Positions 13,358 to 17,014 of a stretch of DNA of 64,000 bases are shown piece after piece. A model generated the notes under the pieces. It had not been told where the DNA came from. It made no database searches and saw only the letters and a program-made list of their open reading frames with translations. This DNA comes from an uncultured Comamonas sp. (GTDB taxonomy: Bacteria > Pseudomonadota > Gammaproteobacteria > Burkholderiales > Burkholderiaceae_C). How positions within the stretch are numbered: the first letter of the stretch is position 1; each line of letters starts with the position of its first letter. The position numbers were made by a program, and so were the translations under genes. The stretch covers positions 2,445-66,444 of the forward strand of contig CABIIJ010000060.1 of the NCBI GenBank assembly GCA_902175065.1, read 5' to 3'.

Positions 13358-15001
13358 ATCGGCATAGGGGGCCTCCATCCAGGAGGCACCCCTGCCACAC
13401 CACCCGGCATGCGGTTCCGCACCGGGCGGTTCGAGAGCTTGAGGTCATGAGAGTCTGGGCAAGCCCAGCCGGTCGAAGTGCGCAATAGTCAGCACGCTGT
13501 TGAGCAGCTTGGCACTGCCCCGCCACCAGCGCCGGCCATTGACCGACACCTGCCGCGCAACGTCGTGCGTGGCCCCCAGTGAGCGCAGTTCGCGGTAGAT
13601 CGTTGCCCCGCGCTTCCAGTGCCTGAGCTGTAGGGCACGCAGACGGTGGCGCAGCCATTCGTCCAGCTCGCGCCAGACTCCGGGTGTTTGCACCAGCCCG
13701 AAGTACGCCTTCCAGCCCAGCAGGTAGGGCCTGAGCTTGTCCACCACTTGGCTTATGCTGCGCCCGATCGAGCGGCGCGTGAGTTGCCTGATCCGGGCCT
13801 TGAAGTTGCCGATGGCCTTGGCGGCCACCTTGTATTTCACTTCCCGGCCCTTGGCCACCCACAGGGCATAACCCAGAAACTTGCGTCCGAAGACGCTGCT
13901 TACGGCACTCTTGGCTTCGTTGATCTCAAGCCTGAGCTTGCCGTACAACCTCCTGAGCCACCCCATGACCCGCTCACCCGCCTTCTTGCTGCCTACGTAG
14001 ACGTTGCAGTCGTCGGCATACCGCGCGAAGCTGTACGTCCACCACCACACGCTTGCCCGCCTGCACGAAGCTGCGAGCGGCTTTGACTGCGTCGTGCGCC
14101 CGTCTGCCTGGCCTGAACCCGTGGCTGTGTTCGCTGAAGCTGGGGTCGATCAGCGGTTGCAGCACTTGCAGTAGTGCCTGCTGGATAAGCCCATCCACCA
14201 CCGTGGGGATGCCCAGCTCTCGCTGGCTGCCGTCCGGTTTGGGGATCATGACCCTGCGCACCGGCTTTGGCCGGTATTGGCCTGCAAGTATCTGGCCGCG
14301 AATCTCTGTCCAACCCGTTTGCAGCAGTTGGCCGGTTTGCTGGATGTCCAGCCCATCGGCGCCTGCCGCTCCTTTGTTGGCCTTGACCCGCTTCCAGGCT
14401 GCTTGCAGGTTCTCTCGCGTCAGCGCCGCTTGCAGCAGGGTGCCAGCCCCTGCTGCCCGCTTTGCCGACCCTGTGCCCTGGTGTTCACGGGGCGGGCCGC
14501 TGGCTTCGTCGCTGACTGGCTCGCGTTCGGCTTCACCGTGCGCTATCCCCGCCCGCCCGGATGGCTCCGGCATCTGACGCATGGCCTTTGGCATCCCTCG
14601 TGTCCTCGGTCACTCACTCTCGTTCGGCCCTTCGCATTCGCCTTGTAGCCTCATCGGCCCCGGCTCCTGCTACTACGGCCTCTGCTGACTTCTCGCTCCA
14701 GCAGCGCTGTCGCCCTTTCAGGCGCAAGGCGAGATCTCCCCAGGTAAGAGTCGCACTCCTTCATCGCACAACCGCCGCATCTACGCCACTTCGCCTTGGT
14801 CACGAGAGCTTCGTGGTTGCTTGCCCACTCGCCCTGCTCGGCAGCGCCTTCTATGCGGTTCTTGTTCATCGGCTCGCGATTTACGCTTCACGCTTCCTTC
14901 CCACACTCGGTCGCCCTCATGCAGTTGCGCTTCACTTCGCTCGTTGTGACCAACTCGCGGCGGGACTTGCACCCGCAGGAGTGCGCCCATGCTGGGCGCA
15001 C
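13358..15001 (-). mobile_element. Bacterial class C (IIC) group II intron, 1644 nt
   Basis: Minus strand begins GTGCGCCCAGC at 15001; domain V GAACCGCCCGGTGCGGAACCGCATGCCGGGTGGTGT at 13397-13432; ends CCTATGCCGAT at 13358; sits 3-4 nt past a hairpin. Confidence 0.92.
13445..14594 (-). pseudogene. ltrA: Intron-encoded reverse transcriptase/maturase, internally deleted and frameshifted
   Basis: RT0-2 (AWKRVKANKGAAGADG, IPKPDGSQRELGIPT, GFRPGR) ends at VVVDV; the next frame resumes at SFARYADD; DLEKFFD and GTPQGG motifs are absent; junction at 14034/14035. Confidence 0.9.
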
Positions 15002-15085: not shown

Positions 15086-15484
15086 TTACAGCGAACGCGG
15101 CACATCCACCCCCTGCGCATACGCCTGGTAGCCCATCCACAGGCTTTGCGCAATGCGCTCGGCCGCAGCAACGGCCTGCTCTGCCAGCGCCTGATTGGCT
15201 TGCTCGGCAGCGGTCGTGCGCCACAGGGCCAGCCATTCGCGGAACAGCTCCGCGTTCAGACCGGGCAGGGCAACATGCTTGGGCATGGGCGCACCGCTGA
15301 AGCGCCCGGTACGCAGCAGGACGCTCGACCAGAAATCGACCAGCCGGTCCAGGTGCGCAGGCCAGTCGTCGATATGGCCATTGAAGATGGGGCCAAGGTT
15401 CGGGTGCTGGCGGATGCGGTCGTAGAACTGGTGTACCAGGGCGGTGATTTCTTCTTCGGTGCAGAGTGCGCGAGGGGCATGCAT
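15086..15484 (-). CDS. Group III truncated hemoglobin
   Basis: LVHQFYDRIRQHPNLGPIF, HLDRLVDFWSSVLL, PMPKH, FREWLALW; ATG 15484. Confidence 0.9.
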   Translation of the reverse strand: MHAPRALCTEEEITALVHQFYDRIRQHPNLGPIFNGHIDDWPAHLDRLVDFWSSVLLRTGRFSGAPMPKHVALPGLNAELFREWLALWRTTAAEQANQALAEQAVAAAERIAQSLWMGYQAYAQGVDVPRSL

Positions 15485-15704
15485 GGCGTAGGTTTCCCGG
15501 GGAGAGCATAAAAAATGCGCAGACCCTGCCGCGCAAGACAATGGCTGGATTTTAGGTAAAGCTTTTTATTGCAGCAGCACCATCACCCAGACGAAGGCTT
15601 TATCGAAACGACCAGATCAATCGTGCATTTTCGTCAAAACGACGAAGAATATCGCCATTCCGAAGTAACGCCGGTGACCGGGTTTCCTCTAAAATCCATC
15701 CCCT

Positions 15705-15800
15705 ATGTTCCACGCGCTGCCCACCTCCTGCCCCCTGCCGTCCACCCTGCCGGACGGCGCGGCGCGTGCCTCCATTACCACCACCACGATTACCGGCTGA
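15705..15800 (+). CDS. Putative Thr/Ile-sensing leader peptide (31 aa) of asd
   Basis: MFHALPTSCPLPSTLPDGAARASITTTTITG*; ends 101 nt before the asd start. Confidence 0.7.
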   Translation: MFHALPTSCPLPSTLPDGAARASITTTTITG

Positions 15801-15894
15801 TCCAGCCCGGCTCGTCGTGCGCCCTTAGAACCGGCCAGACGAGCCGGGCGGAAACAGTCCGGCGACACTGTTTTCCCACTTCTAACTGAAAGGG
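15793..15894 (+). promoter_or_regulatory. Putative attenuator hairpin system upstream of asd
   Basis: 12-bp perfect stem 15805-15816/15838-15849; second stem 15850-15858/15867-15876; alternative pairings 15793-15799 with 15803-15810 and 15843-15847 with 15859-15863. Confidence 0.55.
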
Positions 15895-15901
15895 CGTTTT
15901 T

Positions 15902-17014
15902 ATGAGTAAGCAATTGGTTGGCCTCGTAGGCTGGCGCGGCATGGTCGGCTCCGTGCTGATGGAACGGATGCAGGCCGAAGGCGATTTCGACCTGATCGAG
16001 CCGGTGTTCTTCTCCACCTCCAACGCGGGCGGTGCCGCCCCCGCCATGGCCAGGACGCACACCCAGCTCAAGGACGCCCACGACATCGCCGCGCTGGCCC
16101 AGTGCGACATCATCATCACCTGCCAGGGTGGCGATTACACCAACGAAGTGTTCCCGAAAATCCGCGCTGCGGGCTGGAGCGGCCACTGGATCGACGCGGC
16201 TTCGTCGCTGCGCATGAAGGACGATGCCGTCATCGTCCTCGACCCCGTGAACCAGGACTTGATCGAGCAGAAGCTGGCCGCTGGCGGCAAGAACTGGATC
16301 GGCGGCAACTGCACCAACTCCATCCTGCTGATGGGCGTGGGCAGCCTGTTCAAGGCCGGGCTGGTGGAGTGGGTCAGCTCCATGACCTACCAGGCCGCCT
16401 CCGGCGGCGGGGCCAATCATATGCGCGAGCTGCTCAAGGGCATGGGCGTGATCCACAGCGCAGTGGCAGACAAGCTGGCCACGCCATCGTCGGCCATTCT
16501 GGAAATCGACCGCCAGGTCGCGCAAACCATCCGCAGCGATGTGCCGACCGAGTTTTTCGGCGCTCCGTTGGCGGGCGGCCTGATTCCCTGGATCGACGCA
16601 CAACTGGACAACGGCCAATCCAAGGAAGAGTGGAAGGGCCAGGCCGAGGTGAACAAAATCCTCGGCACCCCGACCACCATTCCCGTCGATGGCCTGTGCG
16701 TGCGTGTCGGCGCGATGCGCTGCCACTCCCTGGCGCTGACGCTGAAACTGAAAAAAGACCTGCCCCTGGCTGAGATCGAGGCACTGATCCAGGCAGGCAA
16801 CCCCTGGGTGAAGTTCGTCGCCAACGACCGCGCCCTGACCGTGAAGGAACTGACCCCGGCCAGCATCACCGGCGGCCTGCAAGTGGGCGTGGGCCGTGTG
16901 CGCAAGTTAAACATGGGGCCGCAGTACCTCTCGGCCTTCGTGATCGGCGACCAACTGCTGTGGGGCGCTGCCGAGCCGCTGCGCCGTATGCTGCGCATCC
17001 TGCTCAAGGCGTAA
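15902..17014 (+). CDS. asd: Aspartate-semialdehyde dehydrogenase
   Basis: [47 protein letters not shown]. Confidence 0.98.

What the first reader, a model, noticed from the sequence alone, without database searches (positions are those of the whole stretch)
15705..15901. Unannotated ThrL-like leader peptide and competing hairpins upstream of asd
Seen: a 31-codon ORF ending ITTTTITG-stop (5 Thr and 2 Ile codons in 7 consecutive positions), absent from the ORF track. Four nt after its stop begins a perfect 12-bp stem (15805-15816/15838-15849). Its left arm can instead pair with the leader 3' end, and its right arm with 15859-15863, which would disrupt a second stem (15850-15876) lying next to the asd Shine-Dalgarno region. 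No U-tract terminator is present. Established: E. coli ThrL uses a Thr/Ile run to control the thr operon, and Asd lies upstream of Thr and Ile in the aspartate pathway. Inference: ribosome-mediated attenuation of asd acting through translation initiation or Rho rather than an intrinsic terminator; not something I know to be described for this group.
Basis: partly seen in the sequence, partly recalled or inferred. Interest (0 to 1): 0.75.

Follow-up and report, generated by a model that had tools for sequence, protein, structure and literature searches.

The report
Thr/Ile leader-peptide attenuator of asd
A small unannotated gene rich in threonine and isoleucine codons, followed by competing RNA hairpins, sits just upstream of asd and is conserved in over 100 related bacteria, so it very probably lets ribosomes sense amino-acid supply and adjust this central biosynthetic enzyme.

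Summary
The 31-codon ORF (15705-15800) ends ITTTTITG-stop, and a perfect 12-bp stem starts 4 nt later. The Thr/Ile run is unique in the window in all six frames and never appeared in 100 shuffles.

It is conserved. I found 34 of 80 species-representative asd loci and 76 independent metagenome hits carrying the same element, always about 80-155 nt upstream of asd. In the 7 codons before the last sense codon, 214 of 217 are Thr, Ile or Lys.

Three alternative pairings each covary: leader 3' end with left arm, left arm with right arm, and loop with right arm. That fits a ribosome-operated RNA switch.

Stand-alone leaders have a TAnAAT box 6-10 nt before the ATG and no Shine-Dalgarno, which suggests leaderless mRNA. 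In Variovorax, Roseateles, Malikia and others the Thr/Ile/Lys run is a C-terminal tail of LeuB.

A standard terminator is not conserved (5 of 74). Modelling favours masking of the asd Shine-Dalgarno, perhaps with Rho, but that pairing shows no covariation.

There is no match in Rfam, Pfam or NCBIfam and nothing in the searchable literature. Everything rests on sequence analysis; translation and regulation are untested.

The parts
15690..15695 (+). -10-like promoter box TAAAAT, 9 nt upstream of the leader ATG, with no Shine-Dalgarno in between. This implies a leaderless or nearly leaderless leader mRNA.
   Evidence: 18 of 18 stand-alone orthologues from genomes and 65 of 68 from metagenomes have TAnAAT 6-10 nt before the in-frame ATG. 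The transcription start site was not mapped.
15705..15800 (+). Leader ORF of 31 codons plus stop: MFHALPTSCPLPSTLPDGAARASITTTTITG*
   Evidence: ATG 15705 is the only possible start, because the in-frame stop TAA lies at 15690-92. Orthologous ORFs are 30-41 codons long.
15774..15794 (+). Sensor run ATT ACC ACC ACC ACG ATT ACC (I T T T T I T). Both Ile codons are the minor ATT.
   Evidence: Unique in the window, with 0 of 100 shuffles matching; ATT 12 versus ATC 61 in neighbouring genes. T/I/K fill 214 of 217 codons in orthologues.
15785..15819 (+). Hairpin 1:2 (anti-antisequestor or pause hairpin). CACGAT/GTCGTG, CCGG/CCGG and CTG/CAG, with the stop codon TGA in its apical part.
   Evidence: -15.3 kcal/mol. 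Present in all orthologues with compensatory changes (GGCUG:CAGCC, GAGCU:AGCUC, GACCU:AGGUC). Cognate versus non-cognate p<2e-4.
15793..15863 (+). ON-state long hairpin 2:3. Core 12 bp is 15805-16/15838-49. The base helix CCGGCTG (15793-99) with CAG..CCGG (15855-62) consumes the left arm of the downstream hairpin.
   Evidence: The core is 92% paired in 23 sequences with C-G to U-A compensations. 2:3 p<2e-4; base helix p=0.01.
15832..15848 (+). Short alternative hairpin 3':3, CCGGC (15832-36) with GCCGG (15844-48). It is the conserved OFF-state partner of the right arm.
   Evidence: Covaries together with the left arm (CCTGG/CCTGG/CCAGG in L010, L018, L072). p<2e-4.
15843..15863 (+).
   Evidence: Predicted in the window when the left arm is blocked. 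The partner sequence is not conserved in orthologues.
15850..15875 (+). A-rich/U-rich hairpin 'T', GGAAACAGT/ACTGTTTTC, ending in U4. It is a weak terminator-like or helper hairpin.
   Evidence: -9.0 kcal/mol including A:U pairs. The conserved motif is AACAGUC..CACUGUUU, but only 5 of 74 orthologues pass standard terminator criteria.
15819..15830 (+). Candidate anti-SD GCGCCCTTAGAA. It pairs with 15880-84 and 15891-97 when the left arm is unavailable.
   Evidence: Complementarity is present in all 21 close orthologues (-7 to -17 kcal/mol, z -1.8) but shows no covariation (p=0.29).
15890..15904 (+). asd Shine-Dalgarno AAGGG (15890-94) and start codon ATG (15902-04).
   Evidence: Modelled P(SD unpaired) is 0.36-0.40 with a stalled ribosome versus 0.10 with a ribosome at the stop codon.
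15902..17014 (+). asd, aspartate-semialdehyde dehydrogenase, the regulated gene.
   Evidence: Pfam Semialdhyde_dh and Semialdhyde_dhC, E 1e-26 and 1e-43.

Best explanation
This is a ribosome-mediated (leader-peptide) attenuator of asd.

Set-up. A promoter whose -10 box (15690-95) lies 9 nt before the ATG makes an mRNA that starts at or within about 3 nt of the leader start codon. Ribosomes translate the 31-codon leader.

OFF state (inferred). When charged tRNA-Thr and tRNA-Ile are plentiful, the ribosome runs to the stop codon (15798-800). This codon sits in the tip of hairpin 1:2, so the ribosome covers or hands back the left arm (15805-16) while the right arm is being made. The right arm then pairs locally (15832-36/15844-48, or 15857-63 in this window). 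The segment GCGCCCTTAGAA (15819-30) pairs with the asd ribosome-binding region (15880-97), and asd is poorly translated. Untranslated mRNA may then be cut short by Rho or by the weak hairpin-U4 at 15850-75.

ON state (inferred). When Thr or Ile is scarce (Lys as well in most relatives), the ribosome stalls in the run 15774-94. This keeps strand 1 occupied. The left arm pairs with the right arm to form the long hairpin 15793-15863, the anti-SD is held in its loop, and the asd SD is free.

What is shown: the ORF, the conserved Thr/Ile/Lys run, the conserved and covarying alternative helices, the fixed -10/ATG spacing, and exclusive linkage to asd.

What is inferred: that the ORF is translated, that stalling selects the ON fold, and that the main output is SD masking.

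My confidence that this is a Thr/Ile-sensing leader-peptide attenuator of asd is about 0.85. My confidence that SD masking is the main output is about 0.45-0.5. The single confidence value given for this explanation (0.65) is a compromise between the two.
For: - The run is unique in the window and beyond chance.
- The same element occurs in 34 of 81 sources, one per locus, always upstream of asd (CM R1, 50-90 bits).
- A metagenome scan used a pattern that did not include the run or asd. Of 95 unique hits, 76 had asd 110-155 nt downstream, and all 76 had a T/I/K run.
- Codon-level selection: A is invariant at codon position 1 for six codons. 214 of 217 codons are T, I or K, with no Asn, Met, Ser or Arg, and rare ATT exceeds ATC 36 to 13.
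- In 17 genome loci the run is in frame with leuB, so it is necessarily read by ribosomes there.
- Alternative helices 1:2, 2:3 and 3':3 are each better in cognate than in non-cognate pairs (0 of 5000 permutations). The base helix gives p=0.01.
- Masked folding gives the ON and OFF folds recurrently.
- The SD is more accessible in the stalled state in 59 of 69 orthologues: 0.39 versus 0.26 with a ribosome at the stop codon, or 0.24 with the left arm unavailable.
- A terminator is not conserved.
- TAnAAT lies 6-10 nt before the ATG in 18 of 18 and 65 of 68 stand-alone leaders.
- Pathway logic, from established biochemistry: Asd is the common step to Thr, Ile, Lys, Met and diaminopimelate.
Against: - There is no experimental evidence for translation of the ORF, for the transcription start, or for any response to amino acids. 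The public RNA data were assembled contigs and uninformative.
- The anti-SD/SD pairing shows no covariation because both sides are conserved (p=0.29). The SD and a GC-rich loop could be conserved for other reasons.
- The modelled change in SD accessibility is modest on average.
- In the Roseateles/Pelomonas group the SD is predicted open in both states, so the output there must differ.
- In the window the free RNA's minimum-energy fold is the ON form. OFF therefore has to be kinetically trapped.
- The permutation tests do not correct for phylogenetic relatedness.
Confidence: 0.65

Rival explanations
1. Classical transcription attenuation. The hairpin 15850-58/15867-75 with its U4 is an intrinsic terminator. 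The long hairpin, whose base helix 15793-99/15855-62 sequesters the terminator's left arm, is the antiterminator formed when a ribosome stalls early in the run.
For: - The base helix is predicted in the window and shows weak covariation (p=0.018 and 0.01). One example is L009, GGGCUGAUC:GAUCAGCCC.
- An A-rich/U-rich hairpin with U4-U8 recurs in Comamonadaceae, in a region of 46% GC next to one of 74% GC.
- T is less likely to form with a ribosome stalled at codon -6 than with one at the stop codon in 46 of 73 orthologues.
Against: - Only 5 of 74 orthologues meet ordinary terminator criteria, and 34 of 74 meet relaxed ones.
- The hairpins are weak: median -6.8 kcal/mol and z -1 versus shuffles.
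- In the window the core is 4-5 bp with U4, and the scan found no + strand terminator.
- In the window T is predicted at 0.7 when the ribosome stalls late in the run and at only 0.2 when it is at the stop codon. That is the wrong direction.
- No U-run exists in the Roseateles group.
Confidence: 0.2
2. Rho-dependent attenuation as the primary output. The C-rich, G-poor 5' part of the leader, or the untranslated asd 5' region, serves as a Rho loading site. Ribosome position or asd translation decides whether Rho reaches the polymerase.
For: - The first 63 nt of the leader are 49% C and 27% G. C exceeds G in all 12 stand-alone leaders checked.
- A conserved intrinsic terminator is absent.
- Rho polarity is the expected consequence of an untranslated asd 5' end (general knowledge).
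Against: - There is no direct evidence.
- C>G is moderate in most relatives (0.31-0.45 versus 0.23-0.32).
- It does not by itself explain the conserved, covarying three-way competition of helices.
- It could be a secondary effect of SD masking rather than a rival.
Confidence: 0.15
3. It is not a ribosome sensor. Either the hairpins form a protein- or ligand-binding RNA or an mRNA-stabilising or processing element, or the short ORF encodes a functional small protein or LeuB tail whose Thr/Ile/Lys composition serves the peptide itself.
For: - The N-terminus MFAARPF of many stand-alone leaders is conserved, which regulatory codons alone do not explain.
- Databases list the peptides as hypothetical, exported or transmembrane proteins.
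Against: - The same run works either as a tail of LeuB or as the end of unrelated short ORFs (Comamonas MFAAR..., Ralstonia MISIAL...). What is conserved is therefore the codon run and its position relative to the hairpins, not a protein context.
- The order of T, I and K is free while the class is fixed.
- The stop codon is always inside hairpin 1:2.
- Linkage is exclusively to asd.
- No Rfam family matches.
Confidence: 0.05

Closest known systems
E. coli thr operon leader ThrL and its attenuator (Rfam RF00506, Pfam PF08254)
   Same: A short ORF with a Thr/Ile codon run. The end of the ORF overlaps the first of several mutually exclusive hairpins. It controls an aspartate-family biosynthetic gene according to charged-tRNA supply.
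   Different: - No sequence or structure match.
- The target is asd, not thrABC.
- Relatives add Lys codons.
- No conserved intrinsic terminator.
- The leader appears leaderless instead of SD-led.
- In many relatives the run is fused to LeuB.
Mycobacterial polycysteine leaderless short ORFs ('Cys ribulon'; Canestrari et al., bioRxiv 10.1101/834739)
   Same: A leaderless sensory short ORF. [quoted passage not shown] That is translational attenuation, which is the mechanism I favour here.
   Different: - A different phylum (Actinobacteria versus Betaproteobacteria).
- A different amino acid (Cys versus Thr/Ile/Lys).
- An unrelated sequence.
- Here there is an additional 1:2 / 2:3 / 3':3 helix competition like that of classical attenuators.
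- Leaderless status and SD masking are only inferred here.
[quoted passage not shown]
   Same: The same enzyme and the same physiological problem: one enzyme feeding Lys, Thr, Met, Ile and diaminopimelate.
   Different: By its title, the E. coli gene lacks an attenuator. The sampled Oxalobacteraceae, Neisseriales-like, Nitrosomonadales, Moraxellaceae and Cellvibrio loci also lack the element. The Comamonadaceae/Ralstonia solution is therefore lineage-specific.
asd RNA motif of Lactobacillales (Rfam RF01732) and lysine riboswitches upstream of aspartate-pathway genes
   Same: Cis-acting RNA elements upstream of asd or aspartate-family genes (from my own knowledge).
   Different: These are ligand- or unknown-factor RNAs without a sensory ORF. 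There is no Rfam hit in the window region even at E<=10.

Membership tests
Thr operon leader (ThrL; Rfam RF00506 / Pfam PF08254 Leader_Thr / NCBIfam thr leader models) | Match to the family's covariance model | tested here: not met
   cmscan of 15300-16100 at E<=10 gave only spurious miRNA and snoRNA hits.
Thr operon leader (ThrL; Rfam RF00506 / Pfam PF08254 Leader_Thr / NCBIfam thr leader models) | Peptide matches the leader-peptide HMMs | tested here: not met
   No Pfam or NCBIfam family at E<=10 for the window peptide or for two orthologues.
Thr operon leader (ThrL; Rfam RF00506 / Pfam PF08254 Leader_Thr / NCBIfam thr leader models) | Lies upstream of thrA/thrABC and is followed by an intrinsic terminator | tested here: not met
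   The downstream gene is asd. There is no + strand terminator in the window, and only 5 of 74 orthologues have one.
Thr operon leader (ThrL; Rfam RF00506 / Pfam PF08254 Leader_Thr / NCBIfam thr leader models) | Short ORF with a consecutive Thr/Ile codon run | tested here: met
   ITTTTIT at 15774-94.
Ribosome-mediated (leader-peptide) attenuators, general class | Short ORF with a run of codons for end products of the regulated pathway, conserved at the level of amino-acid class | tested here: met
   214 of 217 codons are T, I or K across 31 orthologues, and codon position 1 is invariant. All 76 independent metagenome hits also carry the run.
Ribosome-mediated (leader-peptide) attenuators, general class | Mutually exclusive RNA helices, the first of which overlaps the end of the ORF | tested here: met
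   Helices 1:2, 2:3 and 3':3 are conserved, with cognate better than non-cognate (p<2e-4). The stop codon lies in the tip of 1:2 in every orthologue.
Ribosome-mediated (leader-peptide) attenuators, general class | The ORF is translated and expression of the downstream gene responds to supply of the cognate amino acids | not testable with these tools
   No Ribo-seq or stranded raw RNA data were available. Only assembled contigs were on hand.
Leaderless sensory sORF with translational attenuation (mycobacterial Cys type) | Sequence architecture of a leaderless start: -10 box a few nt before the start codon, and no SD | tested here: met
   TAAAAT lies 9 nt before the ATG in the window. 18 of 18 and 65 of 68 orthologues have TAnAAT 6-10 nt before the ATG.
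Leaderless sensory sORF with translational attenuation (mycobacterial Cys type) | The transcript 5' end is mapped at the start codon | not testable with these tools
   There is only a weak hint: one RNA-run contig begins at about 15702-04 behind adaptor sequence, but other contigs span the site.
Leaderless sensory sORF with translational attenuation (mycobacterial Cys type) | A stalled ribosome prevents a structure that sequesters the downstream RBS | tested here: inconclusive
   Modelled SD accessibility changes in the expected direction in 59 of 69 orthologues (window 0.36-0.40 versus 0.10). The anti-SD/SD helix has no covariation (p=0.29), and the effect is absent in the Roseateles group.

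The most novel reading that the evidence does not exclude
In a large part of the Burkholderiales, the amino-acid sensor for asd is not a separate leader peptide. It is a Thr/Ile/Lys-rich tail of 7-10 codons appended to the C-terminus of a full-length enzyme, LeuB (...[16 protein letters not shown]-stop). This is seen in Variovorax, Roseateles/Pelomonas, Malikia, Xylophilus and Rubrivivax-like loci.

Under this reading, every ribosome finishing leuB reports the charging of three tRNAs to a switch that sets expression of the next gene. That would be an intra-operon attenuator using an enzyme's own 3' end as the sensory ORF. The stand-alone, leaderless leader of the window and of Ralstonia would be the same sensor set free from, or not yet joined to, leuB.

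I found no description of a multivalent Thr+Ile+Lys codon sensor for the common aspartate-pathway enzyme.
Probability: 0.6. Interest if true: 0.8.

Novelty: new member of a known kind. Interest (0 to 1): 0.66.

Why it matters
Asd is the shared, essential step towards lysine, threonine, methionine, isoleucine and the cell-wall precursor diaminopimelate. How bacteria balance one enzyme against several end products is an old question, and the E. coli gene was reported to lack an attenuator.

If this element works as inferred, a whole clade (Comamonadaceae, the Rubrivivax/Roseateles group and Ralstonia) solves the problem with a ribosome-read codon counter for up to three end products.

It would also give proteobacterial examples of leaderless sensory short ORFs. 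In relatives it would give a case where the sensory codons are the tail of an upstream enzyme gene.

Practically, more than 100 small ORFs now called 'hypothetical protein' or not called at all could be annotated. Engineering of aspartate-family amino-acid production in these bacteria would need to take the element into account.

Tried and rejected
- **Rfam.** A scan at E<=10 found no relevant family.
- **Pfam and NCBIfam.** Scans of the peptides found no leader family.
- **Public RNA runs.** I tried runs for the window organism and for C. testosteroni. Only assembled contigs were available, with no usable 5' ends or coverage steps.
- **Intrinsic terminator as the output.** I rejected this as a conserved feature: 5 of 74 pass, the hairpins are weak, and in the window T forms in the wrong state.
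It is real in the window, but the partner is not conserved.
- **Covariation for anti-SD/SD.** None was found, so it remains a hypothesis.
- **RNAalifold on the MAFFT alignment.** It recovered only part of the main stem because of indels in the loop. I replaced it with landmark-anchored duplex tests.
- **Literature.** Seven full-text searches and five papers gave no description of an asd leader in Betaproteobacteria. Subscription papers were not searchable, for example Vitreschak et al. 2004 and Lopatovskaya et al. 2010 on attenuators. Prior description cannot be excluded.
- **Haziza et al. 1982.** The paper could not be opened.

Full report
**1. The observation**

- An ORF from ATG 15705 to TGA 15798-15800 encodes MFHALPTSCPLPSTLPDGAARASITTTTITG.
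- It lies 101 nt upstream of asd (15902-17014; Pfam semialdehyde dehydrogenase domains).
- Four nt after the stop, GCCCGGCTCGTC (15805-16) pairs perfectly with GACGAGCCGGGC (15838-49).
- The alternative pairings exist. Leader 3' end with left arm is 15785-99/15803-19 at -15.3 kcal/mol. Right arm with 15857-63 excludes the hairpin 15850-58/15867-75.
- The terminator scan finds nothing on the + strand.
- The run ITTTTIT is the only 7-of-7 Thr/Ile window in six frames of 64 kb. No such window arose in 100 dinucleotide-preserving shuffles.
- The 221-nt region folds with z = -4.8.
- Both Ile codons are ATT, the minor codon here (12 ATT versus 61 ATC in leuB, asd and fimV).

**2. Conservation**

A scan of species-representative genomes with Asd returned 80 loci. 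In 34 of them a short reading frame ends 72-129 nt upstream of asd in a Thr/Ile/Lys run followed by the same hairpin.
- A covariance model of run plus main hairpin hits once per positive locus, always at that place, with 50-90 bits. It hits nowhere else in the window or in 579 kb of loci. Ralstonia scores only 16.6 bits.
- For an independent test I scanned metagenome contigs with GGCTGANNCAGCCNGGNTCGTC, which specifies neither the run nor asd.
- Of 95 unique hits with enough flank, 76 have the Asd N-terminal motif 110-155 nt downstream. All 76 carry a T/I/K run. The other 19 are chance matches with neither feature.
- The element is absent from the sampled Oxalobacteraceae, Chromobacteriaceae-like, Nitrosomonadales/Gallionellaceae, Moraxellaceae and Cellvibrio loci. 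There LeuB simply ends ...AVVAAL or ...VVKALG shortly before asd.
- It has been lost in a few Comamonas and Macromonas MAGs (L003, L017, L048).

**3. The run is read as codons**

- In the alignment, A is invariant at codon position 1 for six successive codons, while positions 2 and 3 vary.
- In 31 non-redundant orthologues, 214 of 217 codons in the seven positions before the last sense codon are Thr (117), Ile (49) or Lys (48).
- Asn, Met, Ser(AGY) and Arg(AGR) codons also begin with A but never occur.
- ATT outnumbers ATC 36 to 13 in these GC-rich genomes.
- The order of T, I and K is free.
- Most relatives include Lys. The window is one of the few with none.
- Thr, Ile and Lys are all made from aspartate semialdehyde, which matches the regulated enzyme (established biochemistry).

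**4. Two contexts for the same sensor**

(a) Stand-alone ORFs of 30-41 codons occur in the window, Comamonas, Giesbergeria, Macromonas, Melaminivora and others, often beginning MFAARPF. Ralstonia has a 45-50 codon ORF ending RTTTKIITKKTI(F/S).

(b) In 17 genome loci the run is a C-terminal extension of LeuB, for example ...[19 protein letters not shown]-stop. These include Variovorax, Roseateles/Pelomonas, Malikia, Xylophilus, and Rubrivivax/Aquincola-like loci. There ribosomes necessarily read the run.

In the stand-alone form, a TAnAAT box lies 6-10 nt before the in-frame ATG with no Shine-Dalgarno. This holds in 18 of 18 genome loci and 65 of 68 metagenome loci, although the flanking sequence is otherwise unconserved. 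In the window the box is TAAAAT at 15690-95. This is the architecture of a leaderless mRNA. The start site itself is not mapped.

In C. testosteroni, leuB has its own terminator and the leader promoter follows. In the window, a group II intron remnant and a globin-like gene lie between leuB and the leader.

**5. RNA structure**

Four strands compete.
- **Hairpin 1:2.** Strand 1 (last run codons, Gly codon and stop) pairs with strand 2 (left arm). The stop codon sits in the tip of this hairpin in every orthologue. Compensatory variants include GGCUG:CAGCC, GAGCU:AGCUC and GACCU:AGGUC.
- **Hairpin 2:3.** Strand 2 pairs with strand 3 (right arm) to give the main hairpin. It is 92% paired in 23 sequences, with C-G to U-A compensations.
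- **Hairpin 3':3.** Strand 3 can instead pair with a loop segment (window 15832-36/15844-48). In L010, L018 and L072 the left arm, loop segment and right arm changed together (CCUGG, CCUGG, CCAGG).
- **Test used.** I compared duplex energies of cognate versus non-cognate strand pairs over 74 sequences that are non-redundant at 90%.
- **Result for the three helices.** All three are better in cognate pairs (0 of 5000 permutations each).
- **Result for the base helix.** This helix joins the Gly-stop codons to the segment after the right arm (window 15793-99/15855-62; L009 GGGCUGAUC:GAUCAGCCC). It gives p=0.01.
- These tests ignore phylogeny, so they overstate significance. The direction is consistent, and explicit compensatory examples exist.

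**6. Output**

- Downstream of the right arm there is a conserved A-rich/U-rich hairpin (AACAGUC...CACUGUUU; window 15850-75), in a 46% GC stretch next to a 74% GC one.
- It is weak: median -6.8 kcal/mol and z -1. Only 5 of 74 orthologues meet the usual terminator criteria, and 34 of 74 meet relaxed ones.
- Its predicted formation does not track ribosome position consistently. In the window it goes the wrong way.
- With the left arm blocked, by a ribosome at the stop codon or by hairpin 1:2, many orthologues fold differently. The segment right after the left arm (window GCGCCCTTAGAA, 15819-30) pairs with the asd ribosome-binding region (15880-84 and 15891-97).
- That pairing closes a junction around the short hairpin and the A/U hairpin. 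Examples are L004 CGCCCUUUC:GAAAGGGCG and L009 GCCCCUUC:GAAGGGGC.
- Modelled probability that the SD is unpaired is 0.39 with a ribosome stalled in the run. It is 0.26 with a ribosome at the stop and 0.24 with the left arm unavailable. The direction is as expected in 59 of 69 orthologues.
- In the window the figures are 0.36-0.40 versus 0.10.
- Against this reading, the anti-SD/SD helix shows no covariation (p=0.29). In the Roseateles group the SD is predicted open in both states. There the loop pairs with a different downstream segment, for example L074 CCUCUCCCG:CGGGAGAGG, and the output is unexplained.
- I therefore favour translational attenuation by SD masking, possibly reinforced by Rho. 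The leader 5' part is C-rich: 49% C and 27% G in the window. I regard an intrinsic terminator as a minor or lineage-specific contribution.

**7. Comparison with what is known**

- There is no Rfam match, and no Pfam or NCBIfam leader-peptide match.
- Where the peptides are in databases, they are 'hypothetical', 'uncharacterised', 'exported' or 'transmembrane' proteins.
- The element works like ThrL and other leader-peptide attenuators but is not a member of that family by any tested criterion.
- The closest mechanistic precedent I could read is the mycobacterial polycysteine leaderless short ORFs. There, stalled ribosomes block a structure that sequesters the downstream ribosome-binding site (bioRxiv 10.1101/834739).
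[quoted passage not shown] I saw only the title, cited in PMC5481828.
- Seven full-text searches found no description of an asd leader in Betaproteobacteria. Subscription literature could not be searched, so novelty is probable, not certain.

**8. Verdict**

The element is a new member of the leader-peptide attenuator class: a lineage-specific asd attenuator that senses Thr and Ile, plus Lys in relatives. The leaderless architecture and the LeuB-tail variant in relatives are the most interesting extensions. Translation of the ORF, the start site, the amino-acid response and the nature of the output all still need experiments.

Noticed in passing
L012, L015, L019, L020, L061-L064, L066, L068, L070, L071, L073, L074, L078-L080 (about 80-130 nt upstream of asd in each): LeuB carries a C-terminal Thr/Ile/Lys-rich extension, for example ...[16 protein letters not shown]-stop. 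It takes the place of the stand-alone leader peptide and is followed by the same hairpins. LeuB in loci without the element ends ...AVVAAL or ...VVKALG.
   Followed up: partly
window 13445-14594 (- strand): A group II intron remnant lies between leuB and asd. The reverse-transcriptase/maturase reading frame is split into two overlapping ORFs. Pfam RVT_1 positions 1-71 fall in one, and 149-204 plus GIIM in the other, so the middle of the RT domain is missing or frameshifted.
   Followed up: partly
window 15086-15541 (- strand); hairpin plus T6 at 15535-15516 (- strand): A globin-like ORF (weak Protoglobin hit, E 1e-4) is transcribed divergently from the asd leader. A GC-rich hairpin followed by TTTTTT lies upstream of its likely ATG on the same strand.
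   Followed up: no
window 15873-15880: Contigs of related strains in three public runs lack 7 nt after 15873. Relative to them, the window carries a 7-nt insertion between the A/U hairpin and the asd Shine-Dalgarno.
   Followed up: no
L032 2767-2913 (Ralstonia mannitolilytica) and database clusters for R. solanacearum, R. pickettii and others: Ralstonia has a longer (45-50 codon) stand-alone ORF upstream of asd, with a hydrophobic N-terminus and the end RTTTKIITKKTI(F/S). TATATT lies 7 nt before its ATG. It is annotated as an exported, transmembrane or hypothetical protein. Its hairpins differ and it scores only 16.6 bits with the Comamonadaceae model.
   Followed up: partly
Stand-alone leaders in L002-L018, L056, L072 and many of L081-L200: The N-terminus of the leader peptides is conserved (MFAARPFxLN...), and an Arg-Ala (CGC GCA) precedes the run. 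Regulatory codons alone do not explain this. It could reflect requirements of leaderless initiation, extra RNA pairing (GCGCGC with GCGCGC after the left arm), or a nascent-peptide effect.
   Followed up: no
L062, L066, L070, L071, L073, L074, L078-L080: In the Roseateles/Pelomonas/Rubrivivax-type loci the 3' half of the main-hairpin loop is complementary to a segment after the right arm, for example CCAAACCC:GGGUUUGG and CCUCUCCCG:CGGGAGAGG. There is no U-run and no predicted change in SD accessibility, so this is a different and unexplained expression platform on the same sensor.
   Followed up: partly
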